Shown: positions 12,401-60,539, numbered from the stretch's first letter. The stretch: DNA of 64,000 bases from a virus (IMGVR_UViG_3300025693_000001); one strand, 5' to 3'. Notes: a model not told the origin generated them from the sequence alone. Made by a program: numbers and translations.

Positions 12401-13517
12401 ATGCCATTGGTACGTGATGGCTCGCATAGCTATTACCCGAATACCCGATTGTGTTCTGGCGGCGAATCGAGTACCGAGCAACACCAGTTTCCCCCGTGCT
12501 AGTCATCTCAAATCTCAAATATTTGGGATAGTCGGGGTTTGTCCACGCATCACCATTCAAACTTAACGTTCCGGTACCAACAGCCAAGTGGTTGACATCC
12601 AAGAATGGAGCAACAGCCGAAGCACTATGATTGTGAATGTTCTGGATTGGTGTGTTTGGGAATTGTGGTCCACGGGTACTAAACGGTATCACAGTTTTGA
12701 GGTTCGCGAAATCAGTGTTAGTGTCATCCATGGCAGCGCCGTATGCAACACTCCCGATTACTCGGCCAACATAATCCGCTTGCTCCAACGTTGTGCTCCA
12801 AGTCATGCGTTGTAGACGAAAATCATATGAATCACTTGGTGTGTGGAAGTCCCAGTTTTCCCCCGTGTGGTGGAATTTTAGATTATCCACCTGCACTGCT
12901 AACTTTGCATTCCACAGTGGATACGAGTTGTATACGTAGTTGTATCCGGGGAACACCTTCTGGTATGCTGCTTGATGGCCGGTTGTTTCATCCTGGTAGT
13001 GAAGTAGGGTGTGTATGCTGGATCGCCCACTATTTCCCATAACCGATACATCGGTACTCTCCACAAAATACAGTCGATATGTCACATCCAATATCTGGGT
13101 GGCAGTTTGTTCACATGGTGGGTCCAATTGGACTCTAGTTATAATGCCACTTCCGGATGGATAGTCATTCAACATGACATTGCGGATGGATCGCGTTGAA
13201 GTGGGTTGATTAAACCGCACCACAATTTCCCAATAGTGGGGATCTGTACCATTATCGTGGTACGTCCAACTTTTCGTTTTGGAATCGTATCGGATCCGGT
13301 CTTCGTGTACAACATCAACCCGCCATAACGCGTTCGAGTCGCCATAGGCAGTAGTGGATATGATTGGTGCTAGCTCATCATCTATGTTGTTATACGCTAA
13401 CGTCTGCACACCTCTTTGTGTGAAGTGGTTTCTTTCATCGCGAGATTCAATAACTTCCAATGTATCTGCATCTCGTAGCGTCAGCGTAACATTACCTTTG
13501 TAGCCAAGTTCTTTCAT
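9471..13517 (-). CDS. Large virion/appendage protein, copy B
   Basis: 1348 aa; same domain order and shared blocks with copy A (VTLTLRDA, LDPPCEQ, PFLDVNHLA.GTG, WT.PDYPKY, RHNFDVE.Y.FTGRS, FVAGEYYTVGV.DGL). Confidence 0.7.
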   Translation of the reverse strand: MKELGYKGNVTLTLRDADTLEVIESRDERNHFTQRGVQTLAYNNIDDELAPIISTTAYGDSNALWRVDVVHEDRIRYDSKTKSWTYHDNGTDPHYWEIVVRFNQPTSTRSIRNVMLNDYPSGSGIITRVQLDPPCEQTATQILDVTYRLYFVESTDVSVMGNSGRSSIHTLLHYQDETTGHQAAYQKVFPGYNYVYNSYPLWNAKLAVQVDNLKFHHTGENWDFHTPSDSYDFRLQRMTWSTTLEQADYVGRVIGSVAYGAAMDDTNTDFANLKTVIPFSTRGPQFPNTPIQNIHNHSASAVAPFLDVNHLAVGTGTLSLNGDAWTNPDYPKYLRFEMTSTGETGVARYSIRRQNTIGYSGNSYASHHVPMAFVADTPEGEVIRYPTIRGGHGLQKYSGKHTRNLNGRVLMYRDLTGITFVDVIDASSTIFDATTTPSLPVSNIREAIVDNGKDIWVADTQAGLFRIANPLGVATITHFSNATHGIPVGGDVSCLGVCVGKDDKIWAAFDGGICSTTDAGVTWTIYDENSTHPFSYVGISDGNWTKIRSIKADQESDEIGILQYVTASTHQVIWWSDVDAAVIGPLAGAPHMFGCSIYGGFWVGGPSEESSGDPYYYTEYNGYTYGSTAFTDFSAGNNGSVNSRCEGLTFMYDYHNNPHAYVQTDYVYAASYARGFVDRDRNRINDMRYTTLSTVIRSREIGMPMHDPSTGVGKGLIRFNYDTHANNAVRLMGMSVGYSHGTLNYQHSVFEENTWDKMQWNGTDWELNYHHPAVDTSGNANDAIRHNFDVESYFFTGRSNIDFSNTFGTGVFGTDATFAVTLNPSDKLTSASRTTIGQQEQQASILEVAAGGDNLLLTWDGGARGGASTMSIFSNVQSGAVVTVPTPAAGGTYRVVATVSATDAKVYLDGTLIMTLLLSSPIDLSNPSSTGVVAKLGSTAVYSNGRPMVRRFFRGNMTNVQCWTGIWDQAAVTSDMLDIGGVITPPVGSTLITRFEMTQSLDGTETKTTHVTDDPLWDGLTNSFADGALPGSFVAGEYYTVGVADGLLKDNATSLTHTGRWFDTGTSEDVTTIAGGDGGSNIVPAGTITVTEPAMFGKTYTKAIAGQSGVICGSQLTNYSGAGAWTMQSTSGDFECTFTLGQVKIDSQFGLSTSIAAGWNNQFLSNIDQSYRFVSDNTLTHFTGSTTRTTGISSWAPGDTFVLAREGTTMLLYKYVIGVKTLIHTSAYSISSPIAMVVNINSGIGSYYDMSVTYEKPAHTLQFGNSTNGDGLFNPNYLGGSGASQVLADGVELDVVTSSTPVIFTTEPAPGTCTYNYISGAVMFNSAEVGKTITGYVTVVNTIPQGTA

Positions 13518-30562: not shown

Positions 30563-31006
30563 CTATCTAAATAAATGTTTTTCTGTGATTATACGAAACT
30601 TTATTCCTTTTTTCTGGCAATATAAATTTGCTGCTTTCCACTTTGCATCATTTACTGCCCAGGTTATTTGTTCGTATAGTTGTGTCTTTTTGTTTTTACC
30701 AACGGTTCGGGGTGCTCTGGTTTCTTTATCGGGTTTTACTTCGATAATTTCTTCCAATAACTCCCCCTGCCTCGTAACATATTTAATCCAGTAGTCCGGA
30801 AGATACATATGTACCCGTCCGTCTGTTGGTTTGAGATATGGTATTCGTATACTCTCCGATGTCCATTCGAGAATGTTTGGATTGTTGTCTAGGAATTGGT
30901 GGAAGTTCAACTCCCACGATGACATATACCGTATCTTGGATAGATCACCCTTATATTTCTCAGGGTGATTTGGTTTGTACTTCCCTTGTTTTGTGCGTCT
31001 AGCCAT
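30563..31006 (-). CDS. 4: Head completion nuclease, T4 gp4/TnsA-like
   Basis: GKYKP.HPEKYKGD, SSWE, W.SE, Y.PD, EVKP, N.AKW.AA, ITE motifs. Confidence 0.9.
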   Translation of the reverse strand: MARRTKQGKYKPNHPEKYKGDLSKIRYMSSWELNFHQFLDNNPNILEWTSESIRIPYLKPTDGRVHMYLPDYWIKYVTRQGELLEEIIEVKPDKETRAPRTVGKNKKTQLYEQITWAVNDAKWKAANLYCQKKGIKFRIITEKHLFR

Positions 31007-32823
31007 TATGCTACCATTGAGTTACTCACGGGGGGTGCAACCGTGTTAAGTGCTAACACCGTTGGAGCTGCTGCTTTCGCTGCTGCTTGCGTTGGCGCGT
31101 TTGATGGAGGTGCCGCTTTGTCCTCTTTGCGTGATACCGCAGTTCCGAATGGAACTGGACCATCCCCTTTGATATCTTCTTCGGGGTTGAATATTGGATC
31201 GATTTCGTATCCAGGGGACACACCAGCACCGGATATCTTAGCCATCAGTTCTTTTGTAACTAAACGGTTCGGCTCAACATATAACCCATCATAACTAAAT
31301 TGAATTTCCAATTCGCTACCCGCACCACTTTCTGCCATATCCACATCATCCAAGTTTAAGTTGGTGATTTTCGGATTGTACATATGATACACATTCAACA
31401 ACTTACCCCAGTCGTATAGATGGTATAATTTGACTTCGAGTAGTATATTTGATGCATCTCCATTTAGGGATCCTAGAGATGCGCCCCCAATCGTATTGTT
31501 TGGAACGGCTGTACGAGAAATGGTGTTTGCTGTTAAACTGCGTTCCTGGTAGTGTTGGGGTAACATGGCATTGCCATCCATCCCCTCATTTGCTATCGGA
31601 CTCATCGCTCGCATGTAGTTTGTATAGAACGTACCAGCGTTGTTCTGAATATCATCATAGAACCGCATCGTCATCGGTTCGTATACCGTACGTTTTGGAA
31701 TTTTGGTCCAGTAATTGTACATGTTGATTTCTTCATACTCGAATGATACGTTGGGGCGGGAGCTATTCTTCACCACAAACTCGAACCCCGATTTAACTCC
31801 ACGCTCCGATGTCATTAGGTGTTGGTATTCCGGATGGAACACAAACTCCACCATAAACATGAATTTGAATTTGGGTTGGTGGTTCTCGGCTAAGTGTGAT
31901 GCGAAGTGTTTCGGGAATCGTTGGGTTTCCACTGCGTACTTTGCAACCGTACATTCGTTGCCGATTGCTTCGGTTTCCGCTTTGAATGCTAAAATCTCGG
32001 TGTCTAATGCTAACATTTGTGATGTTACAGCATCTTGCTCAAATTTGTGTGTTATTTTTTCTTCGTCTGATAGCTTCGATGTATCCGTATTACGTAGAGC
32101 GCTTTCACTATCAAATGCACCTGCAGCACGGTCCAGTATATCTGCGCTTCTGCTATCCATAGCAGCAACCGTTTCTTCCGGACAATTTTTAAAAACACCA
32201 ACATCAACACCCAACCGTTCCATTTTGGACACGGGTGGATCGGAATTTTCCATGTTGATTGGGGTGAATTCATCATCACCATTTTCGTCACCACCGAACA
32301 AACCCGATATCGTCGATCCTGCAGAACCCAGAGCATCGAATACGCTACTGGTGCTGAGGTTTTTTAACCCAGCGATTGCGGTGTTGCCTATACCCGACAG
32401 CACACCACCACCAATATTATTAACAATACCTCCAACCCCCAAACCTATATCCGAACCAACCTGGCCGAGTATTTGGTCCGCAGCTCCCTGAACATTACCA
32501 AGAATACCACCAGCACCAGCTGATAAACTACCAGTGAATGCTCCTGTAATGCCACCTGTAGCGAACCCCGAAAACGCTCCCATTGCTGCGTCAGACACAG
32601 CATTGATAGCAATGTTATTGGCGGCTTTTTTCAAACGACCAGGAACCCGTCGGACCGTGTTATTGATCGTGGCGTTTACCTGCGCTTTTAATATATTTGG
32701 AGCGTTGAGTATGCTGCCACTATTACGCAGCAAGTCGGCCGACCGTCTAACCAAGGCGGCGTTTCTGGCTGCTGTTTTTGATCCCGCTACAGGTGCGGTA
32801 AATTTTCGTGGGTCGATTGCCAT
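31006..32823 (-). CDS. Tail tube-related virion protein with long Gly-rich N-terminus
   Basis: C-terminal PKFKF...RP...EINMYN...YEP.T..FYDD...LD......EI.FSYD parallels the adjacent tube protein. Confidence 0.65.
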   Translation of the reverse strand: MAIDPRKFTAPVAGSKTAARNAALVRRSADLLRNSGSILNAPNILKAQVNATINNTVRRVPGRLKKAANNIAINAVSDAAMGAFSGFATGGITGAFTGSLSAGAGGILGNVQGAADQILGQVGSDIGLGVGGIVNNIGGGVLSGIGNTAIAGLKNLSTSSVFDALGSAGSTISGLFGGDENGDDEFTPINMENSDPPVSKMERLGVDVGVFKNCPEETVAAMDSRSADILDRAAGAFDSESALRNTDTSKLSDEEKITHKFEQDAVTSQMLALDTEILAFKAETEAIGNECTVAKYAVETQRFPKHFASHLAENHQPKFKFMFMVEFVFHPEYQHLMTSERGVKSGFEFVVKNSSRPNVSFEYEEINMYNYWTKIPKRTVYEPMTMRFYDDIQNNAGTFYTNYMRAMSPIANEGMDGNAMLPQHYQERSLTANTISRTAVPNNTIGGASLGSLNGDASNILLEVKLYHLYDWGKLLNVYHMYNPKITNLNLDDVDMAESGAGSELEIQFSYDGLYVEPNRLVTKELMAKISGAGVSPGYEIDPIFNPEEDIKGDGPVPFGTAVSRKEDKAAPPSNAPTQAAAKAAAPTVLALNTVAPPVSNSMVA

Positions 32824-33570: not shown

Positions 33571-35352
33571 TTAAATCTCAGCACCTGTTGCAACGATTCT
33601 GATTGGGATGTATATAAATTCAGCTGCACGGATCGGTTTTAACGCGATGTCGATGTACATTTCATTTCTATCAACTCTATCAGGTGTGTTGTTTGATTCA
33701 TCACTTATCGTCACGAAATCATACAAGCCTCGTTTTGCAACCAAATCATTTAAGAATCCATCCACAGTAGATTTTAGAGCATCTCGTGTGATTTGATCAT
33801 TCGGTTCAAATACGTAGATCAGTGTATTTCTTCGTAGTTGACGTTTTATGTATTTTACCAACCTGGACACGTTCACCCGATCCATAGCACTTGCAGCTAC
33901 AGCAGATGTTTTTTGTCCCCACACCACAATACCTTTACCAGGAAAGAATGTAATTGGGTTGATATCCCCACTTGGTAAGTATTGATACAGGGCATCACGT
34001 TGACCTAAGTTTAACGCAACTTCTTTAAATTCTGTTACACCACCCAATTGACCGGATACGTAACCAACATTGGTTAACCCCGATACCAAACCACGACGTA
34101 AGCCAGCAGGAGCAAACCACAAGAACGATACATCATCACTATGAGCGTATGTACGTAATGCAATTCCACTAGCAGCAACAACAACATTTCTACCATCCAA
34201 ATTAGAAGCAAGTCCCCAAGGATAGTAATATGCTACATGCTGTGATCTAACGCGAGCGGTTGACGCTGCCCATCCAGTAGATGGGTTTGTTATACCATCT
34301 GGCGATAAGTCTACAGGGGTGTCGGCAATGATTAGAGCTTCCTCTTGGCTGTCCACAACCAATCTAAACAGCTCATCCACCGTTTCGTGATAACCAGGAC
34401 ACAGCACTAAGTTGAAATCAAAGTTTTCCGATCTAATATCAGTGTTGCTGTTGATAGATGCTTGTAATGCGGTAACGATAGCGAATCTGCGAGCTGCATC
34501 ATTCGAGCCTAAGCTGGATTTACTCGTGAACTCTACAGTGTATTTGAAATCATCAGCTAAAGCAACCATTAAGTCGCCAGTCTCTTGTGCTGTGAATTCC
34601 CCAACAACGATACCACCACCCGGAAAAGAAGGGAATGAAACGATGTTGTTCGCTATATGCGTTAATCCTTCGTAGCTTCCTGTTGCTGGTAGATCATATC
34701 CATTCGCATACACATCAAATGGTGCAAGTGATTGATCATCAGTGTAATCGTCATGCAGATCTCTGAATGAATACGCAGCAAACAAATCAGATGTTGCTTG
34801 ATCTGTAACAGCGACTAATTCAGCAGCTGTTACTGTTTGTTTGTACCCAACATCACCAGGAATCAACCCATTGACGCTGTTGTATTCGCCGATAAATTCG
34901 TTAGTCAGATTTTCCAACACGATTTTAGCTTCAAGGACTTTACGATCCCACATATCGCGTATAGCATCGATGTTGTCGTTTAAATTCACATTAGAACGAA
35001 TAACGTAAGCTCTGTTGCCTATTCCAAGGTATTGGTTTAACGCAAACAGACCATATTCGTTACGAGCATCACCATGATGAGCATCATTAGCAACACCAAA
35101 AAGTGGTGCTACGGTAACTGGCTCAATGAGGAAGTTTGGTACTCCATACGTGTTCGTGCTCTGTTTGAGGGATGTTATTGTTCGAATTACATCATACTCA
35201 TATGTTCCATCAGCCGGTGTTACACCATCTGGTTGTGTTTTTTCATCTTGCGTTGCTATGAAAAATAAAGGTACTGTAGGCGCTGATACAGGGATGAAAA
35301 AACTCTCATCAGTTACTGTTACGCTTACGCCTGGGCTTACCAAAGTCACCAT
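33571..35352 (-). CDS. 18: Contractile tail sheath protein
   Basis: LVSPGVSV.V.DES start, WFAPAG.RRG, INPI, WGQKT, RVNV.RL, FEPND, DESNNTP, P.RAAEFI. Confidence 0.97.
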   Translation of the reverse strand: MVTLVSPGVSVTVTDESFFIPVSAPTVPLFFIATQDEKTQPDGVTPADGTYEYDVIRTITSLKQSTNTYGVPNFLIEPVTVAPLFGVANDAHHGDARNEYGLFALNQYLGIGNRAYVIRSNVNLNDNIDAIRDMWDRKVLEAKIVLENLTNEFIGEYNSVNGLIPGDVGYKQTVTAAELVAVTDQATSDLFAAYSFRDLHDDYTDDQSLAPFDVYANGYDLPATGSYEGLTHIANNIVSFPSFPGGGIVVGEFTAQETGDLMVALADDFKYTVEFTSKSSLGSNDAARRFAIVTALQASINSNTDIRSENFDFNLVLCPGYHETVDELFRLVVDSQEEALIIADTPVDLSPDGITNPSTGWAASTARVRSQHVAYYYPWGLASNLDGRNVVVAASGIALRTYAHSDDVSFLWFAPAGLRRGLVSGLTNVGYVSGQLGGVTEFKEVALNLGQRDALYQYLPSGDINPITFFPGKGIVVWGQKTSAVAASAMDRVNVSRLVKYIKRQLRRNTLIYVFEPNDQITRDALKSTVDGFLNDLVAKRGLYDFVTISDESNNTPDRVDRNEMYIDIALKPIRAAEFIYIPIRIVATGAEI

Positions 35353-49446: not shown

Positions 49447-51918
49447 TTATTTAACCTTCTGTTGAACCTCGCCAAACTGAGAATTCTCATTTAATAAATC
49501 GTTCTGCTCATCTAAGCTTTCTTGCTGCTTAAAGCTGGTATCTTCTATGGTTTTGTTCATTTTTGTGATGCCCAGAGATGCTTCCATAGCAGCTTCAATT
49601 TGTTTAAGCATCATTGCATTCTGTTCGGATATCTTGGCGTTTAATTCGGTTAATTGTGTCACGGTTTGGTTTGCTGGTGCTTGCTGCACTTGTTGATTGG
49701 TGACAGCAGATCCATCAGCAATGACAGGACCAACTCCCGCAGCAACGGGAGTCGCTGCATCCCCCCCAGAAATAAAATTAGCAACTCTATCAACCAATCC
49801 AACAGTATCATGAACTGATTTTCCAACTGTATCCACAACAGATCCCCACGCATCCGTTCCCAACTTCTTGTCAATGGCCTCAATGCCTTGTCTAACTTTT
49901 GGGCCTGCAATATCACCAAGCTTCAACCCTATCGCTGCTGCTATAGCTATCGGTAGTCGTCTAAACAAACTCTTGGCAAAATTCTTCAGTACACCCCACA
50001 ACGAAGGAACCAAATTCTTTCCATGCTGAACAACTTGAGATCCGATGCTTTTTACCGATTGCATGGCTTTCGATGCTAATTCTGCTGCTTTCTGTACTAA
50101 GCCTCCACCTGCATTTTTTGCTGCAGTTACCATCCCACCGACCCTGGATTTTGCACCATTTGCCAAGTCAGCCACTTTCGACGCTATACCGCTGGCCAGA
50201 CCTTGTCCACCTTTGAACATCTTGAGCGCTCCCCATATGCCACCAACGGAAGTCAATATCGGTCCCAATAAATCCGTTAACACCCCAACTAATCCACCGA
50301 TAGCAGAAACCACTGGATCAGCTATCAGTGGTCGAGCATACGAATCCCATAACTGTTTTATCTCTTGTAGGAATTTCGGTATCGTTTGTAGCGTGTCTTC
50401 GCCTGGATCTTTCGTTCCCTTGCCCGCTCCAAATTCTGTTTCCTTTGCTATCGTTTGTGCAAATTCGTTTACCTTCGGCATTTTTGCGATTAGGTGCTCA
50501 AGTGCGGCAGCTTGTGCCAGTGATGCTGGATCGTTTTTACCCCGAATGTCAGCTATCCTGCTGTTCATCTGTCCCAACAATGTGTTGTATTCTTTTTGTT
50601 GATCTCCATCCTTGCCAACCATCATATCCAGTTGACGCAACCTGTCTGCATCCTTACCACTCATACCGGATTGAGCGGCAACCATTGCGACTACCATGGA
50701 CTCTTTCATCCTATCCATCACACCCCGATCGCTTAATCCTGCAGCTTTCTCTGCCATTGCAAATGTGGATTCTAGCGAAATACCAAGTTTTTTGTTTCGC
50801 TCTGCTTCCTTAAGAATGCTATCTTTATACGCTTTTCGCTCTTGGACGGTTTGCATCTTCAGCATCTTATTACGAACGGCCTCACTACCCAACATCTTTT
50901 GTGTCATTGATGCGACTTCGGATGTGGTTTTATTGGACATTCGCCCGAGTTTGGCAAATTGATTTATCATTATTTCGGATTGATCAGCGATATCATTCAG
51001 GCCCACCTTCTCACCAAACCCCTTCAAAATATCCATTGAAGTACCCATTAACTGCGATGCACCGGCATACGACCCCGTCAGTTTGTAGGTCATATCCATT
51101 AAACTTTCACGTCCATCACGCTCAGCGGTCAACATGCTAACGTTTTGTCGGACAGCGTCGTTTACGCTAGTATAATCCTCCTGCATTGATAGGAATAGAT
51201 TTTTATTCTCTCCAACAAATTTCTGCATTTCTTCGGGAGCCAGCCCCATCTTCAGAGCTGACGATTTTATCCCCTCTCCGATAATACTATACATGCCAAT
51301 TTGTTTTTGTTGGGCATATTCCAATTGGTCGAAACTACGTTTTAGTGATGCTGTTATCGCAGTCATGCCGCGTTCAAAAGTAAACAACCCCTTAACTGAC
51401 GATTTTAGTGCTGCGGTCCTATCCTTCAACGCTTGCGTCGCTTGATATGTCTGCTTCATCGCTTTGACATCAGTTTGCATTCTGCTGTTGGTGACCTTCG
51501 TACTTTTGGTAATTTCAGCATTCAACACATTAAACGCAGACCGAACACTAGCAGCATCATTACCAGCATTATCAAAACTTTTCACCATTTCTTTGGTAAA
51601 CGTTTGGGGTGATGCTTTGTGAAGATCTCTGGCCAATTTCTTCAATTCTTTTGAAGTTTTCTTGGAATTTTTTGTCTGCATCTCATTTTCTTTTTTGAGT
51701 TTGTCAGACTTATCTTGTAGGTCCCCCAAGGCATCGGATGTTTTCTTCAATACCTTGATCCCGTTTTCCTGAGCACGGAGCTCTCTTCTATCGGAAGCGG
51801 TATCGTTGTGGTTTTCCATCTTATCGATGAAAGCACTGTATTGTTTTGTGCTGTTTCTCAATGATAGTCCGAATGCGTTGATCGCTGATAACGCTTCATT
51901 TATTTCACCTGATGCCAT
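49447..51918 (-). CDS. Tape-measure-like protein
   Basis: 823 aa, helical, Ala/Gly-rich with 11-residue-like periodic region; downstream of the chaperone pair; late core at 51948-51953. Confidence 0.6.
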   Translation of the reverse strand: MASGEINEALSAINAFGLSLRNSTKQYSAFIDKMENHNDTASDRRELRAQENGIKVLKKTSDALGDLQDKSDKLKKENEMQTKNSKKTSKELKKLARDLHKASPQTFTKEMVKSFDNAGNDAASVRSAFNVLNAEITKSTKVTNSRMQTDVKAMKQTYQATQALKDRTAALKSSVKGLFTFERGMTAITASLKRSFDQLEYAQQKQIGMYSIIGEGIKSSALKMGLAPEEMQKFVGENKNLFLSMQEDYTSVNDAVRQNVSMLTAERDGRESLMDMTYKLTGSYAGASQLMGTSMDILKGFGEKVGLNDIADQSEIMINQFAKLGRMSNKTTSEVASMTQKMLGSEAVRNKMLKMQTVQERKAYKDSILKEAERNKKLGISLESTFAMAEKAAGLSDRGVMDRMKESMVVAMVAAQSGMSGKDADRLRQLDMMVGKDGDQQKEYNTLLGQMNSRIADIRGKNDPASLAQAAALEHLIAKMPKVNEFAQTIAKETEFGAGKGTKDPGEDTLQTIPKFLQEIKQLWDSYARPLIADPVVSAIGGLVGVLTDLLGPILTSVGGIWGALKMFKGGQGLASGIASKVADLANGAKSRVGGMVTAAKNAGGGLVQKAAELASKAMQSVKSIGSQVVQHGKNLVPSLWGVLKNFAKSLFRRLPIAIAAAIGLKLGDIAGPKVRQGIEAIDKKLGTDAWGSVVDTVGKSVHDTVGLVDRVANFISGGDAATPVAAGVGPVIADGSAVTNQQVQQAPANQTVTQLTELNAKISEQNAMMLKQIEAAMEASLGITKMNKTIEDTSFKQQESLDEQNDLLNENSQFGEVQQKVK

Positions 51919-53986: not shown

Positions 53987-55573
53987 TTATATTACGGTGT
54001 ATGACTCTTTCCACCACTTAGGAATCATGTGGTGTGCTGTTTTATACAAATACCCGAAACTAGCATCGACAATATAGACCGATCCCACATCAGACTTGGA
54101 TCTAACTACGCGTCCCCCTCCTTGAATTATAGCAATTAGGGTTTGTCGTTGGTACCATTCGGATGACATATCCATCCGTCTCTTGATCCATTGGTCACCC
54201 AAATACGGATATGGTGTTTTTACAAAGATTGCAAATTTACCTAACTCACCTTTCAGATCCAAACCCTCTGTAGATGATGGTGAGATCAGTATACGTGGTT
54301 GTGTATCTGTTAAATATGCGTGTATAACGGAATCACGACTATCACCTGAATCTGGGTTGTGATGATATATGTGATGAGGTCCATCTGCTAATTCTTCTGT
54401 AAGCCACTGAGCCACTTGAAAGTTGGCTGTATGTAGGATCCCGCTTTCTTCTTTGTGATTTGCTAGCAAGAACTGTACATCTTGGATCATTTCACCTCTA
54501 GGCTTTTTATTCTCCGGTTTATTCCACCCATAATTCATCTTCATGCGAGGCATGTAATATACTGGTCTGTTTTCTTTATCGAACTCCGAATCAAGCGACA
54601 GGAATGCTGTTTCTTCTTGTGGTATTTGTAAATCTTCACAGAATCCATCTTTATTTAATATGGTTGAAGACATAAACAAGAAGTTTGACGCCATTGGCTT
54701 TAGTATGCGGTTGAATGAATATCCACCAGTTAAGCGCTTGAATTGGAACATTGTTTTATCCCACACTAACACAAAATTGTCTTCCACATAGCTTTCTGTG
54801 CGAGCTATCATCATGTGGCTTTCTTCCACATGTTCGGTTAATGAGTCGAATTCACGGATTTTATTGATATCAGCTCTGGATAAGTCGTTACCGGATTGTT
54901 CTTTTAGATGCTCAACTTCAACTTCAAGCGCTGTATATATTGGCATAAGCTTCGGCATGTAATAGTCCGACATCCATTCTATGGCAGACATTAAGTCTTT
55001 GTGTACCTTGAAATCTATGCTGTATTTTTTGCATCTAGCATATGTGATCATTAATGCATCAAAGTTTACTAGGTGCTGCTCGAGTGTGTGACACTCATCA
55101 GCAATCATCAAGCTGCGTTCTGTAAATGTTTGAGTAAATGCAAATGCGGTTAATGCTAATTTGTAATTAAGTATTACGTTATCGGATTTAACTGCGCTTT
55201 CTTTTGCGGCTTTATGCGGACATGATGCACATCTAGGCTTTACCAAAGAACCAATGTCACATGTAGTACCTTTGCTGCCACATGAGTAGTTGCCTTTACC
55301 ATATAAAGACACGGTTTCTTTTTCTTTGAAATCGTCTTCGTATTGCTTTTGAAGAATCTTCTGTGGTGTTAATATAAAGGATGCTTTCTCTGATTGGTGT
55401 TTTAAGTATCTGGCATATGTTAATGCAATATACGATTTACCCCCACCAACTGGCATTTCCAATATCTGGAATTTTTTGTCTTGAGTGTCGGCTAACCAGT
55501 TTAAAGCAGTAACCTGAGATGCTCTTGGTTCTAGTTCAGGAAAGGGCCAGAAATCTAATATGTTTTTTTGCAT
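53987..55573 (-). CDS. DinG/XPD-family SF2 helicase
   Basis: PR.SQ Q-motif, E.PVGGGKS, four-Cys cluster, DECH, MSSTI, EGLDL, K.PYP, Q..GRVVRS..D.G.VYI.D. Confidence 0.88.
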   Translation of the reverse strand: MQKNILDFWPFPELEPRASQVTALNWLADTQDKKFQILEMPVGGGKSYIALTYARYLKHQSEKASFILTPQKILQKQYEDDFKEKETVSLYGKGNYSCGSKGTTCDIGSLVKPRCASCPHKAAKESAVKSDNVILNYKLALTAFAFTQTFTERSLMIADECHTLEQHLVNFDALMITYARCKKYSIDFKVHKDLMSAIEWMSDYYMPKLMPIYTALEVEVEHLKEQSGNDLSRADINKIREFDSLTEHVEESHMMIARTESYVEDNFVLVWDKTMFQFKRLTGGYSFNRILKPMASNFLFMSSTILNKDGFCEDLQIPQEETAFLSLDSEFDKENRPVYYMPRMKMNYGWNKPENKKPRGEMIQDVQFLLANHKEESGILHTANFQVAQWLTEELADGPHHIYHHNPDSGDSRDSVIHAYLTDTQPRILISPSSTEGLDLKGELGKFAIFVKTPYPYLGDQWIKRRMDMSSEWYQRQTLIAIIQGGGRVVRSKSDVGSVYIVDASFGYLYKTAHHMIPKWWKESYTVI

Positions 55574-55606
55574 GATTTATATTCTTCTTATGTAATTATA
55601 TTAGAT

Positions 55607-55635
55607 ATTATACATTAAAAAGATATAGTAATCAA
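55607..55635 (-). promoter_or_regulatory. Sigma70-type promoter of the helicase gene
   Basis: TTGATT-17 nt-TATAAT. Confidence 0.75.
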
Positions 55636-55638
55636 ATG

Positions 55639-56113
55639 CCCTTTCAGGGAGATGTTAGCAAATAAAAATCAGCTAAAGCAAATTTTTGATTCACCAACAT
55701 CTATTTAGATCAATTTTAGAAGCATATATAATTAAACATTTTTATAATCCCCCCCACACCTAAACGGTGCTTTATGGCTTGAAGAATAATATTAAATACA
55801 CAAAATATTAACTACCAAAAGGAACCGATTAAATAAAACTTCGTACGGGTGACACCGGCCTACCTTACTTTGTTACAATTTCTGTCAAACATATGACAAT
55901 GCTAAACCTCTTCACGAACTTTGTTCAAATCCATTAGTGTAGTTTACATTTTTATAGCACTCTGGCTAAGCGGTTACGTGGCAAAACACGTGTAATCCTG
56001 GCGTATTGTATTTCACGGCACCTTTAAAACGGGACGCGATCAAATAGCCTCTTGCACTTTTAACAAGCAGTCTTCCATCTCATTCGCATGAGCGGGTTTG
56101 TGTATTTAATTCT
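55639..56113 (-). ncRNA. Candidate large structured non-coding RNA (or RNA-dependent origin)
   Basis: No ORF of 60 aa or more; TAAATA at 56119-56124; 14 bp perfect closing stem 56097-56110/55791-55804; several internal hairpins incl. a GCGA tetraloop; G-U pairs favour the minus strand. Confidence 0.6.
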
Positions 56114-56125
56114 GTAGCTATTTAG

Positions 56126-56476
56126 TTAGAATATCATGTGAGCATTGATCAAAATGTCTTTTAATTCTTGGGTCATTTCAGACAGCGGTAATGGTGCGGT
56201 GGTGACTTGTTCACCAACCCTATCATCTGCAGGTCGCAAACGATATTCAAAACTAACGCACATATCTTCTACGGTATCATAGTCTGGTGTGGAAGCATCG
56301 AGACGCTTCGTGATAGCACAAGGCTCTTTGACTATTTCAAACTCATACAACCCAACAACAGTATCATCATCGGCTAAAATATTACCTTTTAAAGCAGGAG
56401 TTATTATGGGTGACTTGAATTCCCCACCATACACATCTCGAGTCTCTACGAACTCGTCATCCCAATATTTCATCAT
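56126..56476 (-). CDS. Hypothetical protein
   Basis: ATGA overlap with the upstream stop gives start 56476 (MMKYWDDEF...). Confidence 0.65.
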   Translation of the reverse strand: MMKYWDDEFVETRDVYGGEFKSPIITPALKGNILADDDTVVGLYEFEIVKEPCAITKRLDASTPDYDTVEDMCVSFEYRLRPADDRVGEQVTTAPLPLSEMTQELKDILINAHMIF

Positions 56477-56679
56477 CGGTTTGGATCCATATCGCCCCAA
56501 TGGGATGTTGGTCTATGGATACCCAACCCACCTATTCGGAATGATGTACCACCTATTAACTTTTGAAGCGCATCTTCTTTACCGCACGCAGGACATTCAG
56601 TAAGCGGTTCATCGCTGAATTTTTGTATCTTTTCGAACTCATTTTCACATTCTTTGCATTGGTATTCGTATATCGGCAT
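56473..56679 (-). CDS. FmdB-family zinc ribbon protein
   Basis: MPIYEYQC..C...FE.......PL..CP.CG. Confidence 0.9.
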   Translation of the reverse strand: MPIYEYQCKECENEFEKIQKFSDEPLTECPACGKEDALQKLIGGTSFRIGGLGIHRPTSHWGDMDPNR

Positions 56680-57197
56680 TATTCTTCCTTATCTATAATG
56701 GCAGCAGCAAGCCACCAGCTATCCGTAACATCATATAACCCCTTGGTTTTTAACAATTTATAGGGTTCTAGTTGTTCTTTGATTGTCTGAGGAAGAGCTT
56801 TATACATGTTTTGCTTCTTCTTCATTTCTTTTGCTTTTAATTCAGGCTCATCCAGTATTATCTTTTTGTGAGCGTGCATTTTGATTGATTTTGGTGCGAT
56901 GATATCGACTTCATATTGCAATTTTTGTAAGTAACAAACAATCACAAATTGTAATCCCGCTAAATCACGGGTAGCACTACCAGTCATACCATACGCCAAG
57001 CCTTCGATAGCTATCTTCGGTGTGTGCTTTTGAACGATATCACCAAGTGTGGTGGCAATGTAGTTCGCACGCGTAAAGATACCCTCATCTTTCGATGTTG
57101 ATATCACTCCACAATCGATGATGTTTTTGTCACCATCCAAGATACTCCAGCCCGTGTATGTATACGATTGATCTATTCCTAAATATAATTTATCCAT
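56679..57197 (-). CDS. RuvC-like Holliday junction resolvase
   Basis: LGIDQS...TGW, IAIEG, P..IK, D.TDS acidic motifs; follows gp46. Confidence 0.85.
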   Translation of the reverse strand: MDKLYLGIDQSYTYTGWSILDGDKNIIDCGVISTSKDEGIFTRANYIATTLGDIVQKHTPKIAIEGLAYGMTGSATRDLAGLQFVIVCYLQKLQYEVDIIAPKSIKMHAHKKIILDEPELKAKEMKKKQNMYKALPQTIKEQLEPYKLLKTKGLYDVTDSWWLAAAIIDKEE

Positions 57198-57226
57198 CAC
57201 CATATTTAGGTGATGGATTTTTGGGG

Positions 57227-59488
57227 TTAGTTTACCACTTTCGAAAATCCATCTTTAAATTGCACGTGAAGCTTGTTATTGAATGCGTTATCTAAATCTC
57301 GGTGAGAGATAACAAAGATAGATGATTTGTCATCTTCTGCCTTGCGTTTAATCATGCTAACAGCATTTTGTATGCCACCTGCATCCAAACCAACATCCAA
57401 CACCTCATCCAATACCCACATATTCAGAGGATCGTGCAAGTATTGTAACACATCTCGGAAGGCAAAGGAAAGCGCTAAATTAACTCGACACTGTTGACCG
57501 TTTGAAAGATTGCCATACTGAAGTGACTTACCCAACCTATTAATACTGACTTCCATCTTCGGGGTAAACATTACACTATGTGGTAACCCCATGTCTTTTA
57601 AGTACTTATCCAGTTGTATGTTTAGGTACGGTATTGACTGATTCAGCATGGTTTTGCGAATAAAGCTGTTTTTGTTAGTCAGTAATTTTAGTAAGAATTT
57701 CTGGTGTTCGATCAATTTGTGCAACTCATCGCTACGCTTGGTACCTTTCACGTATACAAATTCGGTACCGTTGACAGATTCGAACAGCTTATCCATGTTG
57801 GTTGTTGGTAGTTTTATGGACTCGAACAATTCAAAGAAAGTTGTATCACCATCAAATTGTTCATTCTGTAAATCTTGCATCTGATCCAACCAAGCGTTTG
57901 TTTCTTTCTTTACAGCAGCTAGAGTTGTCTCCGCAATTGTTAGCTTGTGTTTGTGATCGTCAATACCTTTTTTGTTGAGTGTGCGTTTACCCTCAATCGT
58001 CTTTAGCTTAATTTCCGCTTTACTGAAATCAGCTTTAGCTTTCGTCAGTAACTTCTCCAATTTAGCTCGTTCTTTTGGATCGAATTTTTCTTTTAATTCT
58101 GCAGCCCGTAACACATGTGGGTTTTCCAACGATGCAATCGTATCCAACCGTTCTTTGTTTGATGTTAGCTGTTGTGTGATGCTAGTCAGATAATCCGGAG
58201 TTGCTGTAATCAAATCAGCCACCGTTTTTATCGTGGTTGCTAACCCTTCTGCTGATTCTGCTATTGTTTCTAGTTTACCAACCAATACATCGATGTCAGC
58301 CTCTGCTGTCGTTACAGCATCCTCACACTTCGCTATATTTTTCTTGGTATCTTTAAATGGCTGCGTGCAATACGGACACGTATTATCGTTTAAGTGAGTC
58401 AACTCCTTGTTGTTATCATCAATGATACCTTCGAGAGCTGCAAATTCACCGGTTATTTTGGTGGTTTCGTTATCAAGCTCTTTCTTTTGATCTAACGCGG
58501 CACGGTAAATGTCGTTTTGCTTTGTTTGATATGCAACGTCAACATCCTCCAATTCGGAGATTTTTGCCTCAATCGCTTCTCTTTTGTCGTTCTGATCTTC
58601 TTCCCACACCAACGCAGCTTCTTCCGCAATTAACATATCAGATGCCAAATTTGTAACAACATCCAACTTTAGTTGCGTTGTATCGATCGTTTGCTCTAAC
58701 ACATCACACTCATCGCCAACGTCATCCGATTGATCGCGCAGACGCTCTTCCGCATCTAGCTGTACATTGTTTAGGTGCGCGAGCTCATCGACAGCAACAC
58801 CCAAATCGATGTCATGTTTCTCATTCCAGTCATCGACACGACCGCTGGTGATCTGCAGTTGCTTCATGAATCGGTGACAGTCTTTGTTGTGTTGTTCAAT
58901 GTTACTTTCTTCAGTCTCGAATGATCTAGTTGAGTCTTTGATTCGGTCTTTTAGAATACCAGCCTTATCGGATAGCATCTTCAAGTCCAATAACTCCTCT
59001 AGCATATCCGCTTGATTTCTCATAGGGAGGTTCAAAAACTGCGTATTAATCGCCGAGAATACGATAACTCGAACGAATAGATCGTGGGGCATTCCCAGAA
59101 TCTGTTCAATTTTCGTGTTTGTATTTGATATACTATCGGGTGTGATCTCCTCATCGTCTTCCCACAACTCAACACCATTGCCTTTCAGCTTTCTGTGTCT
59201 GCGGACCTTGTATGTGTGGTTATTCTTCTCGAACACCACAATCACCTCCATATTCTTTCCGTTGATGTGGTTAATCAACCCATCTTTCGATATATCCGAT
59301 ACTGGCTTATCGTATAAACCGTACGATATTGCATTAATTATTGTTGATTTTCCAACACCATTCGAGCCACCATCGTCGACATTTTCACCAACGATCATTG
59401 TAGTGCCTGGTGTTGTCAGGTCAACTTTGGATGGTACGGAACCATATGATTGGAAATTTTGAAATTGTACTGATATTAATTTAGTCAT
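57227..59488 (-). CDS. 46: Recombination ATPase gp46 (Rad50/SbcC-like)
   Basis: NFQSYG, NGVGKS, CPYC hook, LSNGQ signature, LDE..D..LD, ISH. Confidence 0.95.
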   Translation of the reverse strand: MTKLISVQFQNFQSYGSVPSKVDLTTPGTTMIVGENVDDGGSNGVGKSTIINAISYGLYDKPVSDISKDGLINHINGKNMEVIVVFEKNNHTYKVRRHRKLKGNGVELWEDDEEITPDSISNTNTKIEQILGMPHDLFVRVIVFSAINTQFLNLPMRNQADMLEELLDLKMLSDKAGILKDRIKDSTRSFETEESNIEQHNKDCHRFMKQLQITSGRVDDWNEKHDIDLGVAVDELAHLNNVQLDAEERLRDQSDDVGDECDVLEQTIDTTQLKLDVVTNLASDMLIAEEAALVWEEDQNDKREAIEAKISELEDVDVAYQTKQNDIYRAALDQKKELDNETTKITGEFAALEGIIDDNNKELTHLNDNTCPYCTQPFKDTKKNIAKCEDAVTTAEADIDVLVGKLETIAESAEGLATTIKTVADLITATPDYLTSITQQLTSNKERLDTIASLENPHVLRAAELKEKFDPKERAKLEKLLTKAKADFSKAEIKLKTIEGKRTLNKKGIDDHKHKLTIAETTLAAVKKETNAWLDQMQDLQNEQFDGDTTFFELFESIKLPTTNMDKLFESVNGTEFVYVKGTKRSDELHKLIEHQKFLLKLLTNKNSFIRKTMLNQSIPYLNIQLDKYLKDMGLPHSVMFTPKMEVSINRLGKSLQYGNLSNGQQCRVNLALSFAFRDVLQYLHDPLNMWVLDEVLDVGLDAGGIQNAVSMIKRKAEDDKSSIFVISHRDLDNAFNNKLHVQFKDGFSKVVN

Positions 59489-60539
59489 TGTTGTCTGGTT
59501 GTAAGTCTTGGAAAATTGTTATCAACAGGTCATTATCAATGTGTTTGGTTTCTATGCCACCCAACATTTCACATACCATATCATTTGTGTTGGATGATTC
59601 AATCTCGACGATATCTTCATCCACTTCAGTCTCGGCCAACGCTTCTCGGATCTCAGCCGTTTCCTCTAGGTTAAATGCTCGTAGTCCGTAATCATCCATG
59701 AATTTTTTGCGTATAACGCTACCTTCGGAATAGTCAATCGGTACATCAACTGTACATTTCACTCGAGCTCCATTCGCTAAATCAGGATCTTCGAGTAACT
59801 CCGATAACGTCGCTGAGACATACTTCGGACACTCTTCCCAATTTACAAAAGCTAGTGTTTCGGATTCGTGATCGTATGTAGCCAATCCACGCTCGTTGTC
59901 ACCCGCATCACCAAAGTTGGTGGGGAAGCAATTCCCAATATATGTTATGTTTTTTTCGGTTTGTCGCTTGTGAAAATGACCAGATAGTATGGTGGGTTTC
60001 GTGAAATCTTGTGGATCGGGACCACCCTTCATTTTGGTGTTGTGACCAGTGATGACAAAACCGGAAAATTCGAAATGTCCAGCCCAAAATTTCAGGTGCG
60101 AGTATTGAGCTAGCGTTGAATACTCATCGTGGAATAAAAACGGACACAACAACACACCATCGCCTATATTGTCGATGATGGTTGGTTCGTATATAGGTAT
60201 GAAATTATCAAACACTTCAAATTGAACGATTGAGTGAATTTCACGGGAGTGTCGTTTATACAAATCGTGATTCCCGATTATGAAGTAGATTGGGATACCC
60301 AAATCATTCAACATTCCAGCTCCTTTTTGTGAGTAATTTGATGTTAGGATATCAATGGCGCTTCGCTCTTGATTCCAATCACCCAGAAATATGACGTGAT
60401 CAATTTCTGGGTCATCTTGAACATTTTTACAAAACCATTCCAAATACTTGATACAATCTTCGTTGTGTTGGACAGAGTTCGACTTCGCTCCGAAGTGCAG
60501 ATCTGTAAACAAACCTCCCTTCATTAACTGTTTAGGCAT
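59481..60539 (-). CDS. 47: Recombination nuclease gp47 (Mre11/SbcD-like)
   Basis: DLHFG, FLGD, GNHD, GH, SGHFH phosphoesterase motifs. Confidence 0.95.
   Translation of the reverse strand: MPKQLMKGGLFTDLHFGAKSNSVQHNEDCIKYLEWFCKNVQDDPEIDHVIFLGDWNQERSAIDILTSNYSQKGAGMLNDLGIPIYFIIGNHDLYKRHSREIHSIVQFEVFDNFIPIYEPTIIDNIGDGVLLCPFLFHDEYSTLAQYSHLKFWAGHFEFSGFVITGHNTKMKGGPDPQDFTKPTILSGHFHKRQTEKNITYIGNCFPTNFGDAGDNERGLATYDHESETLAFVNWEECPKYVSATLSELLEDPDLANGARVKCTVDVPIDYSEGSVIRKKFMDDYGLRAFNLEETAEIREALAETEVDEDIVEIESSNTNDMVCEMLGGIETKHIDNDLLITIFQDLQPDNND

What the first reader, a model, noticed from the sequence alone, without database searches (positions are those of the whole stretch)
55639..56124. Large structured non-coding locus between the RuvC operon and a DinG-like helicase
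This is the largest ORF-free gap (~550 bp) in a densely coded window. On the minus strand a late-type TAAATA (56119-56124) places +1 near 56113, at the start of a perfect 14 bp stem (56097-56110 with 55791-55804) closing ~290 nt. Inside are hairpins CUCAU-GCGA-AUGAG, ACGUG/CACGU, GAAC/GUUC and UGUCA/UGACA. Downstream come a GCACC/GGUGU hairpin (which could alternatively pair with 56018-56026), a G7 tract (55749-55755), an AT-rich stretch and a long G-U-containing hairpin (55650-55702). I do not recognise it as tRNA, tmRNA, RNase P or an intron. Inference A: a novel ~330-470 nt phage RNA, possibly working with the neighbouring helicase, zinc ribbon or nuclease. Inference B: an R-loop-primed origin, since structured RNA plus a G tract plus AT-rich DNA recalls ColE1 RNA II, and DinG-family enzymes unwind R-loops.
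Basis: partly seen in the sequence, partly recalled or inferred. Interest (0 to 1): 0.85.

Follow-up and report, generated by a model that had tools for sequence, protein, structure and literature searches.

The report
New helicase-linked structured phage RNA
The 552-bp gene-free gap holds a roughly 380-nucleotide, intricately folded non-coding RNA that matches no catalogued RNA family, and similar RNAs sit just upstream of the same Fe-S helicase gene in many related jumbo phages; its function is unknown.

Summary
Window 55574-56125 is by far the largest ORF-free stretch (552 bp; the next is 119 bp). The 14-bp inverted repeat, the named hairpins and the G7 tract are all present.

Single-sequence folding energy is no better than shuffles (z -1.1 for the gap, -0.2 for the core). 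Comparative evidence is strong:
- **Conservation:** the core (about 55733-56112, minus strand) is 87.6% identical to a metagenomic relative. The adjacent helicase gene is 73.8% identical, and the spacer does not align.
- **Covariation:** in five relatives, 27 of 81 proposed pairs show compensatory double changes (8.7 in shuffles, 4-8 in slid controls).
- **Strand:** invariant G-U pairs place the RNA on the minus strand.
- **G7 tract:** it pairs with C-runs inside the RNA, so it is a helix strand, not a free tract.
- **Helicase promoter:** a sigma-70-type promoter lies between the RNA and the helicase ATG, so the RNA is not the 5' UTR of transcripts started there.

Four mutually unalignable groups of such elements lie just upstream of the orthologous DinG/XPD-type helicase, including in phages XacN1, RAS14 and Xoo-sp13. 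Covariation was counted in two groups and seen by eye in the other two. Rfam 15 gives no match.

Best reading: a new family of discrete structured RNAs, function unknown. An R-loop origin is not excluded. Expression is untested.

The parts
55733..56112 (-). Conserved core of the structured RNA, about 380 nt. The 5' side starts near the AAUUAAAUACACAA arm. The 3' side ends just after the G7 tract plus AUUAUAAAAAUGUUUA.
   Evidence: 87.6% identity to L012:2291-2660, where conservation stops. Covariation in A5. nhmmer finds a single hit in the window.
56119..56125 (-). CTAAATA, one mismatch from this phage's late-promoter consensus (C)ATAAATA. It directly follows the stop codon of the upstream 124-aa ORF. 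Possible start signal; unproven.
   Evidence: Consensus derived from upstream regions of about 25 minus-strand genes. L012 has AATAAATA, L030 has CTAAATAA further upstream, L027 has none.
56097..56110 (-).
   Evidence: Inverted repeat I1, 100% complementary. Kept in L012 and L027 with wobble or mismatch only and no compensatory change.
55791..55804 (-). 3' arm of the 14-bp pairing. It lies in the loop of a local hairpin (about 55776-55818) whose stem covaries, so the long-range pairing is a loop-to-5'-tail pseudoknot or an alternative conformer.
   Evidence: the local hairpin has different stems in window, L012, L027 and L126, and a conserved loop UUUGUGUAUUU.
56094..56096 (-). 5' CCC, predicted to pair with the 3' G tract.
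   Evidence: RNAalifold pairs 20-22 with 511-513, invariant in four of four sequences. The XacN1 group has C6 and G6.
56079..56092 (-). Hairpin CUCAU-GCGA-AUGAG with an invariant GNRA-type tetraloop (GCGA).
   Evidence: Helix 3: three of five pairs have changes on both sides, 95.7% of cells paired.
56064..56076 (-). Invariant single-stranded or short-hairpin segment GGAAGACUGCUUG.
   Evidence: Invariant columns in A5.
55976..55991 (-). Hairpin ACGUG-UUUUGC-CACGU.
   Evidence: Helix 6: three of five pairs have changes on both sides.
55954..55969 (-). Hairpin UUAGC-CAGAGU-GCUAU with a conserved CAGAG loop.
   Evidence: Helix 7: five of five pairs have changes on both sides.
55883..55898 (-). Hairpin UGUCA-UAUGUU-UGACA.
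   Evidence: Each of the five relatives folds a 4-8 bp hairpin here with a different stem sequence.
55819..55866 (-). Helix AAGG/CCUU plus GCCGGU/AUCGGU, enclosing the invariant loop GUGnnACCCGUAC.
   Evidence: Helices 11 and 12 (four pairs with changes on both sides). L027 and L126 carry a hairpin insertion in the loop.
55756..55770 (-). Hairpin GCACC-GUUUA-GGUGU immediately 5' of the G tract.
   Evidence: Invariant stem that tolerates loop insertions of 11 nt (L027) and about 70 nt (L030).
55749..55755 (-). G7 tract: the 3' strand that clamps the 5' CCC and an internal CC. It marks the 3' boundary of conservation.
   Evidence: All four sequence groups end in a G-run.
55670..55681 (-). TTGCTTTAGCTG in the loop of an A5/U5 hairpin in the poorly conserved spacer. 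Kept in L012 as TTGCTTCAGCTG. Role unknown.
   Evidence: Five copies with at most one mismatch in the window against 0.36 expected.
55607..55635 (-). Sigma-70-type promoter TTGATT-17-TATAAT for the helicase gene, downstream of the RNA.
   Evidence: 10 of 12 matches. L012 has TTGATG-17-TATACT at the aligned place. Equivalent promoters occur in RAS14 and cluster B.
53987..55573 (-). DinG/XPD/Rad3-type SF2 helicase with four conserved cysteines. It is the only constant neighbour of the RNA.
   Evidence: Pfam Helicase_C_2 and ResIII. PDB profile hits to DinG, FANCJ and XPD. C98, C105, C115 and C118 are invariant.

Best explanation
The gap encodes a discrete, highly structured non-coding RNA of about 380 nt on the minus strand, the same strand as the flanking genes. 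It belongs to a previously undescribed family (or superfamily) of RNAs that sit immediately upstream of a DinG/XPD-type Fe-S helicase gene in jumbo phages with T4-like core genes.

**Shown**
- The sequence is conserved more strongly than the neighbouring genes.
- At least eight helices show compensatory substitutions.
- G-U pairs fix the strand.
- An invariant GNRA tetraloop is present.
- Synteny with the helicase is strict.
- A separate helicase promoter lies downstream of the RNA.

**Predicted**
- A 3' G-rich strand pairs with a 5' C-run and with an internal pyrimidine strand, closing the molecule.

**Inferred**
- The RNA folds into a compact, pseudoknotted particle and acts as an RNA rather than as a DNA site.
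- It is made either from its own promoter (sigma-70-type in RAS14 and cluster B; possibly a late-type CTAAATA here) or by processing of the upstream operon transcript.
- My best guess at its role is as a partner or regulator of the adjacent helicase and recombination module (gp46/47-like, RuvC-like, helicase). The role itself is unknown.
For: **Conservation.** The core is 87.6% identical to L012. The helicase gene is 73.8% identical, and the spacer and upstream ORF barely align.

**Covariation in the window group (A5).** RNAalifold gives 67 pairs, 27 of them with compensatory changes. With the 14-bp stem added there are 81 pairs:

| Measure | Observed | Shuffled | Slid controls |
|---|---|---|---|
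| Cells paired | 92.6% | 83.6% | - |
| Pairs changed on both sides | 27 | 8.7 +/- 2.2 (0 of 500 reach it) | 4-8 |

The hairpins were predicted from the window alone. They hold in relatives that have different stems or loop insertions.

**Strand.** Many invariant G-U pairs would be A-C mismatches on the plus strand.

**Not coding.** There is no ORF of 30 aa or more, and indels are not multiples of three.

**Synteny.**
- Elements detectable by sequence profile lie upstream of, and on the same strand as, the helicase in 39 of about 75 IMG/VR loci. They also occur in the metagenomic loci and the three cultured phages.
- The upstream neighbours differ: XacN1 has baseplate genes there, and L012 has an extra ORF.
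- Small ORFs are inserted between the RNA and the helicase in L027 and L030.

**Related groups are also structured.**
- Cluster B has 18 of 31 pairs with double changes and 57 such cells against 19.6 in shuffles. This includes a 5'-3' closing helix.
- By eye only, with no control: the XacN1 group shows GGUAC/GUACC changing to GGUGU/ACACC and ACGGAC/GUCCGU changing to GCAUAA/UUAUGC.
- By eye only, with no control: cluster A has a hairpin with six different stems.

**Independent transcription units in relatives.**
- RAS14 has a promoter 5' of the RNA and a second before the helicase.
- Cluster B has TTGACA-17-TATAAA 5' of the RNA (read by eye, not flagged by the scan). It also has a 13-bp terminator-like hairpin and then the helicase promoter.

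**Copy number.** The element is single-copy in each of the three complete genomes.
Against: **No thermodynamic signal.** Folding energy is no better than shuffled sequence.

**Limits of the structural evidence.**
- The window-group alignment has only five sequences.
- The structure was derived from the same alignment, which inflates the paired fraction.
- The 14-bp stem and the CCC:GGG clamp are invariant, so covariation does not prove them.

**Ends undefined in the window.** No sigma-70-type promoter was found 5' of the RNA, and no intrinsic terminator follows it on the minus strand.

**Common origin of the four groups unproven.** It rests on position, size and the shared 3' G-run with clamp architecture. 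Profiles give no cross-group hits.

**Not universal.** About a third of helicase loci have no room for the RNA.

**No test of interaction.** Any link to the helicase rests on synteny only.
Confidence: 0.55

Rival explanations
1. RNA-primed (R-loop) replication origin. A structured transcript, comparable to ColE1 RNA II, ends in a G-rich segment that forms a persistent hybrid with the C-rich template next to A+T-rich DNA. The neighbouring DinG-type helicase would process or remove the R-loop, as UvsW does at T4 oriF and oriG.
For: - A G-run marks the 3' edge of conservation in all four groups.
- A+T-rich DNA follows it in the window.
- Early-type promoters lie 5' of the element in RAS14 and cluster B.
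- The element sits in a replication and recombination cluster, next to a helicase of a family known to unwind R-loops.
- T4 R-loop origins lie near points of transcriptional divergence, and UvsW unwinds their R-loops (PMC3016281). The divergence point here is 4.4 kb away, at about 60.5 kb.
- The element is single-copy in each genome.
Against: - The G-run is predicted to be paired inside the RNA. In cluster B the 5'-3' clamp covaries, which fits a closed molecule better than a nascent primer.
- T4 oriF and oriG need only about 100 bp (a promoter plus an unwinding element) and no structured RNA.
- There are no iterons.
- Cumulative GC skew has no inflection at 55.6-56.1 kb.
- There is no antisense-RNA promoter pattern.
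- The elaborate, GNRA-containing, pseudoknotted fold is more than a primer is known to need.
Confidence: 0.15
2. Cis-acting RNA element of the flanking mRNAs. It could be a structured 3' UTR that stabilises or processes the upstream RuvC/Zn-ribbon operon transcript. Alternatively it could be a read-through or attenuation switch that tunes late transcription into the helicase gene.
For: - In the window no sigma-70 promoter precedes the element, and it starts right after the upstream stop codon.
- No terminator separates it from the helicase.
- It is on the same strand as both neighbours.
- In L128 and XacN1 the G-run can alternatively pair with a downstream C-run, which hints at alternative conformers.
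Against: - The helicase has its own conserved promoter downstream of the element.
- The upstream gene differs between relatives, while the element stays with the helicase.
- ORFs are inserted between the element and the helicase in L027 and L030.
- Relatives have a dedicated promoter and a terminator-like hairpin.
- 380-500 nt with pseudoknots is far larger than known attenuators.
Confidence: 0.12
3. A ribozyme, or the remnant of a self-splicing or mobile RNA (group I-like or another catalytic RNA) that has become fixed next to the helicase gene.
For: - Its size, its pseudoknots, the invariant GNRA tetraloop and the long invariant single-stranded segments are typical of catalytic RNAs.
- T4-like phages are rich in group I introns (general knowledge).
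Against: - No Rfam ribozyme or intron model scores even at E of 10 or less, nor at gathering level in relatives.
- The element is not inside a gene, so there are no exons to join.
- There is no homing endonuclease ORF.
- Its position is stable and single-copy, which does not fit a mobile element.
Confidence: 0.07
4. Not an RNA at all: a DNA-level site (packaging signal or protein-binding array), an unannotated small protein gene, or chance complementarity in A+T-rich spacer DNA.
For: - Folding energy is no better than shuffled sequence.
- A+T-rich DNA gives many chance hairpins.
Against: - Compensatory changes far exceed the controls.
- The G-U pairs are strand-specific.
- There is no ORF of 30 aa or more, and indels break any reading frame.
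- There are no repeated binding sites.
- Conservation exceeds that of the coding flanks.
Confidence: 0.03

Closest known systems
ColE1 RNA II primer and the T4 oriF/oriG R-loop origins
   Same: - A several-hundred-nt folded transcript (RNA II).
- A G-rich segment at the functional 3' end, with A+T-rich DNA after it.
- An R-loop-unwinding helicase encoded nearby (UvsW in T4).
   Different: - Here the G tract is predicted to pair inside the RNA and to clamp the 5' end.
- No antisense RNA I-like unit, RNase H site or initiation has been shown.
- T4 origins need no structured RNA (PMC3016281).
- There is no sequence or Rfam relation.
GOLLD and ROOL (large ornate RNAs of unknown function, often in phages and prophages)
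   Same: - Large, conserved, multi-helix, pseudoknotted RNAs.
- Carried by phage genomes.
- No known function.
   Different: - No match to their Rfam models.
- Smaller: about 380-500 nt, against about 600-800 nt.
- Linked to a helicase gene rather than to tRNA clusters.
- Found in jumbo phages of Gram-negative hosts.
Type IV CRISPR CasDinG with its crRNA
   Same: A DinG-family helicase encoded next to a gene for a structured RNA.
   Different: - No repeats or spacers.
- No Cas genes in the neighbourhood.
- The RNA is a single large fold, not a guide array.
Group I introns of T4-like phages
   Same: - Size of 250-400 nt.
- GNRA tetraloops and long-range pseudoknots.
- Phage setting.
   Different: - The element is intergenic, so there are no exons.
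- No endonuclease ORF.
- No hit to the Rfam group I intron model (Intron_gpI) even at E of 10 or less.
RNase P RNA and tmRNA (closed RNAs whose 5' and 3' ends pair)
   Same: - The ends are clamped by a terminal helix.
- Pseudoknots are present.
- GGAAGACU in the window and GAGAAAGACUG in XacN1 superficially recall the GAGGAAAGUCC motif of RNase P.
   Different: - ARAGORN finds no tmRNA, and Rfam finds no RNase P or tmRNA.
- In XacN1 the look-alike motif is a covarying hairpin loop, not a P4 (catalytic-core helix) strand.

Membership tests
Any Rfam 15 family (4227 models, including GOLLD, ROOL, OLE, raiA, HEARO, RNase P, tmRNA, 6S, group I and II introns, riboswitches) | Covariance-model score at or above the family's gathering threshold | tested here: not met
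   No matches in the window, in the XacN1-group loci or in 20 cluster A and B loci. With permissive filters on 55400-56300, only chance-level hits appear (E of 1.7 or more, far below the gathering scores).
tRNA / tmRNA | Cloverleaf or tRNA-like domain with a tag ORF | tested here: not met
   ARAGORN finds no genes in the whole window.
ColE1-type RNA II primer | Promoter about 500 nt upstream of the RNA-DNA transition | tested here: inconclusive
   Sigma-70-type promoters lie 5' of the element in RAS14 and cluster B. None was found in the window.
ColE1-type RNA II primer | Antisense regulator (RNA I) transcribed from the opposite strand of the 5' region | tested here: not met
   The only plus-strand promoter-like sites are at 55602-55629 and 55704-55732, outside the 5' region. 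Their number is not above the shuffled expectation.
ColE1-type RNA II primer | Persistent RNA-DNA hybrid, RNase H cleavage and DNA synthesis from the RNA 3' end | not testable with these tools
   Needs DRIP, nascent-strand mapping or in-vitro replication.
T4 oriF/oriG-type origin | MotA-dependent middle promoter (MotA box at -30 plus a -10 element) followed by an A+T-rich unwinding element | tested here: not met
   The pattern TGCTTYA-N11-13-TANNNT occurs twice in the window against 0.97 expected. Neither copy is on the minus strand in the spacer. A TTGCTTTAGCTG motif exists at 55670-55681 but has no properly spaced -10 element.
Iteron-type origin (T4 oriE, plasmid-like) | Cluster of evenly spaced direct repeats | tested here: not met
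   Only three short two-copy direct repeats occur in 55400-56300.
CRISPR array / crRNA | Direct repeats separated by spacers | tested here: not met
Conserved structured ncRNA (generic criteria) | Compensatory base changes above controls in homologous sequences | tested here: met
   for the window group. for cluster B.
Conserved structured ncRNA (generic criteria) | A discrete transcript with defined ends | not testable with these tools

The most novel reading that the evidence does not exclude
The RNA and the Fe-S helicase form a functional pair: a large folded RNA that loads, targets or gates a DinG/XPD-family helicase during phage replication or recombination. This would be a natural RNA partner of this helicase family outside type IV CRISPR. 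It could alternatively be the RNA arm of a new kind of phage origin.
Probability: 0.2. Interest if true: 0.9.

Novelty: categorically new. Interest (0 to 1): 0.72.

Why it matters
From general knowledge, few classes of large (over 300 nt), intricately folded non-coding RNA are known, and several of them turned out to be ribozymes, ribonucleoprotein cores or self-assembling particles.

This one is:
- conserved more strongly than the neighbouring protein genes;
- present in hundred-kilobase-scale phage genomes from many metagenomes, and in three cultured phages (XacN1, RAS14, Xoo-sp13) where it can be tested directly;
- tied by synteny to a single protein, an Fe-S DinG/XPD-type helicase, inside the recombination and replication gene cluster.

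It therefore offers a tractable way to ask what such RNAs do in jumbo-phage DNA metabolism. It also offers a concrete candidate for the unknown replication-initiation signals of these phages.

Tried and rejected
**Searches of known families**
- Rfam at gathering and permissive thresholds found nothing.
- ARAGORN found nothing.

**Folding energy**
- z-scores against shuffles were not significant on either strand or for the core.

**Similarity searches of the phage collection**
- blastn of the gap found no match.
- blastn of cluster A and B representatives found no match.

**Exact-motif scans for more window-group members**
- IMG/VR gave no hits for two patterns.
- The looser pattern GCCRGTGNNACCCGTAC gave 93 hits that are mostly chance. 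Only one weak profile hit came from them.
- Genome contigs gave one hit, in a Burkholderiaceae MAG contig. It has no homology to the element and is a chance match.

**Cluster-B 17-mer scan**
- Six of ten hits are known helicase-linked loci. The other four are chance matches.

**Cross-group homology**
- nhmmer profiles gave no cross hits, so the superfamily claim rests on architecture and position.
I did not build a shorter one, judging cross-group sensitivity too low to be informative.

**Other checks**
- MotA-type middle promoters are not enriched.
- GC skew is monotonic through the site and turns only where gene orientation flips, at about 60.5 kb.
- RNase P resemblance (GGAAGACU/GAGAAAGAC) was rejected. 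See the closest-known entry for RNase P RNA and tmRNA.
- Leader peptide after the G-run: short ORFs exist in some members but are not conserved (read).
- Papers: the XacN1 genome paper does not mention the region. Searches for phage structured RNAs found nothing matching. A 2026 preprint on helicase-associated ncRNAs concerns PhoH2, not this family.

Full report
**1. What is at the site**

Window 55574-56125 has no ORF of 30 aa or more in any frame. It is by far the longest stretch free of ORFs of 40 aa or more: 552 bp, against 119 bp for the next.

All flanking genes are on the minus strand:
- gp47-like and gp46-like nuclease/SMC proteins (59481-60539 and 57227-59488);
- a RuvC-like resolvase (56679-57203);
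- a Zn-ribbon protein (56473-56679);
- an orphan 124-aa ORF (56126-56500);
- then the gap;
- a 528-aa helicase (53987-55573);
- a T4_baseplate protein.

The helicase profile matches DinG, FANCJ, CHL1 and XPD structures and has four invariant cysteines. The window carries a T4-type portal and many structural genes. Its closest cultured relatives, at 44-46% helicase identity, are the jumbo phages XacN1, RAS14/CM1 and Xoo-sp13.

**2.

The following are all present:
- the 14-bp inverted repeat (55791-55804 with 56097-56110, 100% complementary);
- the named hairpins;
- the G7 tract;
- TAAATA at 56119-56124.

The sequence alone does not fold better than chance. The z-score is -1.11 for the gap and -0.19 for the core on the minus strand, and -0.14 on the plus strand. 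Rfam (4227 families) and ARAGORN find nothing.

**3. Comparative evidence overturns the thermodynamic null**

Metagenomic contigs with helicases 69-77% identical (L012, L027/L028, L030, L126) carry the same element in the same place.

Against L012:

| Region | Identity to L012 |
|---|---|
| Core (window 55733-56109) | 87.6% |
| Helicase gene | 73.8% |
| Spacer between core and helicase | does not align |
| Upstream ORF | barely aligns |

. Conservation stops about 16 nt after the G7 tract. Length differences fall in hairpin loops, with insertions of 11 to about 70 nt.

RNAalifold on the five sequences gives 67 pairs, 27 of them with compensatory double changes. With the 14-bp stem added there are 81 pairs. 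Of these, 92.6% of cells pair, against 83.6% in shuffles. Pairs changed on both sides number 27, against 8.7 +/- 2.2 in shuffles (0 of 500 reach it) and 4-8 when the partners are slid by 1-3 columns.

- CUCAU/AUGAG and ACGUG/CACGU each have three covarying pairs.
- UGUCA/UGACA is replaced by a different 4-8 bp stem in every relative.
- GCACC/GGUGU is invariant but keeps its stem around large loop insertions.
- GAAC/GUUC holds in only three of five relatives.
- The 14-bp stem is kept without any compensatory change.

Many invariant G-U pairs fix the RNA on the minus strand.

**4. Architecture**

- **Clamp.** The G7 tract is predicted to pair with the CCC that follows the 5' arm (56094-56096) and with an internal CC. 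It is a helix strand that closes the molecule, not a free G tract.
- **Long-range pairing.** The 3' arm of the 14-bp pairing lies in the loop of a local hairpin whose stem covaries: UUAAUAUU, AUGAAUG, GAAUAUAU and AUAUAUUAA in four sequences. The long-range pairing is thus a loop-to-5'-tail pseudoknot or an alternative state.
- **Tertiary-fold signs.** An invariant GCGA (GNRA-type) tetraloop and long invariant segments (GGAAGACUGCUUG, GUGnnACCCGUAC) suggest a compact tertiary fold or protein contacts.

**5. Transcription signals**

A sigma-70-type promoter (TTGATT-17-TATAAT, 55635..55607) lies between the RNA and the helicase ATG. It is kept in L012. The RNA is therefore not the leader of transcripts started at that promoter.

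The phage's late promoters read (C)ATAAATA. At the 5' edge of the element:
- the window has CTAAATA, one mismatch from the consensus;
- L012 has a perfect copy;
- L030 has a variant further upstream;
- L027 has none.

The 5' end is therefore unknown. No intrinsic terminator follows the RNA on the minus strand.

**6. A wider helicase-linked set of RNAs**

A helicase alignment (A7) retrieved 80 IMG/VR loci, about 75 of them with upstream sequence. Around 40 of 72 have ORF-free gaps of 300 nt or more.

The gaps fall into sequence groups:
- W: the window group, 5 members;
- A: 18 members;
- B: 14 members;
- X: XacN1, RAS14 and Xoo-sp13;
- several singletons.

nhmmer profiles of the four groups hit 39 IMG/VR loci. 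The hits are always on the helicase strand, just upstream of the helicase, and never in more than one group.

- **Group B** is itself a covarying structure. It has 18 of 31 pairs with double changes, and 57 such cells against 19.6 in shuffles. Its G-rich 3' strand pairs both with the 5' end and with a nearby pyrimidine strand.
- **Groups X and A** show clear compensatory changes by eye.
- **Shared feature.** All groups end in a G-run.
- **Promoters.** RAS14 and group B have a sigma-70-type promoter 5' of the RNA and a second one before the helicase. L175 has a 13-bp terminator-like hairpin between the two.
- **Neighbours.** The upstream neighbours differ: baseplate genes in XacN1 and an extra ORF in L012. 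Only the helicase is constant.
- **Copy number.** The element is single-copy in the three complete genomes.
- **Other checks.** No Rfam family matches groups A, B or X. No cultured phage other than the X group carries them.

Whether W, A, B and X share ancestry is not proven. It is an inference from position, size and the common clamp architecture.

**7. Interpretation**

The best-supported reading is a gene for a discrete, compactly folded non-coding RNA of a new family, functionally tied to the helicase and recombination module. The fold, strand, conservation and synteny are shown. The transcript, its ends and any partner are inferred.

**The R-loop-origin idea keeps some appeal.**
- A G-run marks the 3' boundary, and A+T-rich DNA follows it.
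- Early promoters lie upstream in relatives.
- The neighbouring helicase belongs to a family that unwinds R-loops.
- T4 offers a precedent, with origins that use R-loops which UvsW removes (PMC3016281).

**Several points argue against it.**
- The G-run is paired within the RNA.
- The ends are clamped with covariation in group B.
- There are no iterons.
- There is no MotA-type promoter.
- There is no skew inflection at the site.

A cis-regulatory role is weakened by the separate helicase promoter and by the variable upstream genes. DNA-site, coding and chance explanations are effectively excluded.

**8. Novelty and limits**

I found no catalogued family or paper describing this RNA.

Limits:
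- the window-group alignment has only five sequences;
- the structure was derived from the same alignment;
- two long-range pairings are invariant;
- the function is unknown.

Noticed in passing
L030:1674-2065: Between the RNA and the small ORF that precedes the helicase, this relative carries two direct copies of a roughly 200-nt unit, 93-97% identical. It could be a duplicated regulatory region, a second RNA or an iteron-like array. The window has no counterpart.
   Followed up: partly
window 55670-55681 (also 34554-34565; one mismatch at 43657, 47228 and 53811): The 12-mer TTGCTTTAGCTG resembles a T4 MotA box. It sits in an A5/U5 hairpin loop in the spacer and is kept in L012. It occurs five times in the window against 0.36 expected, though three of the copies lie inside genes.
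   Followed up: partly
window, upstream of about 25 minus-strand genes (for example 4420-8463, 9471-13517, 31006-32823, 49447-51918): A clear late-promoter consensus (C)ATAAATA lies 10-70 nt upstream of many structural genes. It is a variant of the T4 TATAAATA late promoter.
   Followed up: partly
Proteins P0039, P0073, P0086 and P0102 (helicase homologues): Some orthologous helicases are 846-885 aa long and carry intein or homing-endonuclease domains (PF05203, PF05204, PF14528). Inteins have invaded this helicase family.
   Followed up: no
Spacers of cluster A loci (for example L136, L139, L140, L143, L146) and L027:1880-1990: GC-rich motifs such as GACGCGCCAGCGGAAG, GCGCAGCGAAG or ..CGAAG recur in the loops of long A+T-rich hairpins between the RNA and the helicase promoter. 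They may be a binding site or a terminator family.
   Followed up: no
L001:5775-5936 (XacN1 ORF313): The only annotated feature inside the XacN1 gap is a 53-aa 'predicted ORF' on the opposite strand. It overlaps the 3' part of the conserved RNA region and the helicase promoter, so it is probably spurious.
   Followed up: no
window 56126-56500: The 124-aa ORF just upstream of the RNA has no Pfam or PHROG match. Only fragments of it align with L012.
   Followed up: partly
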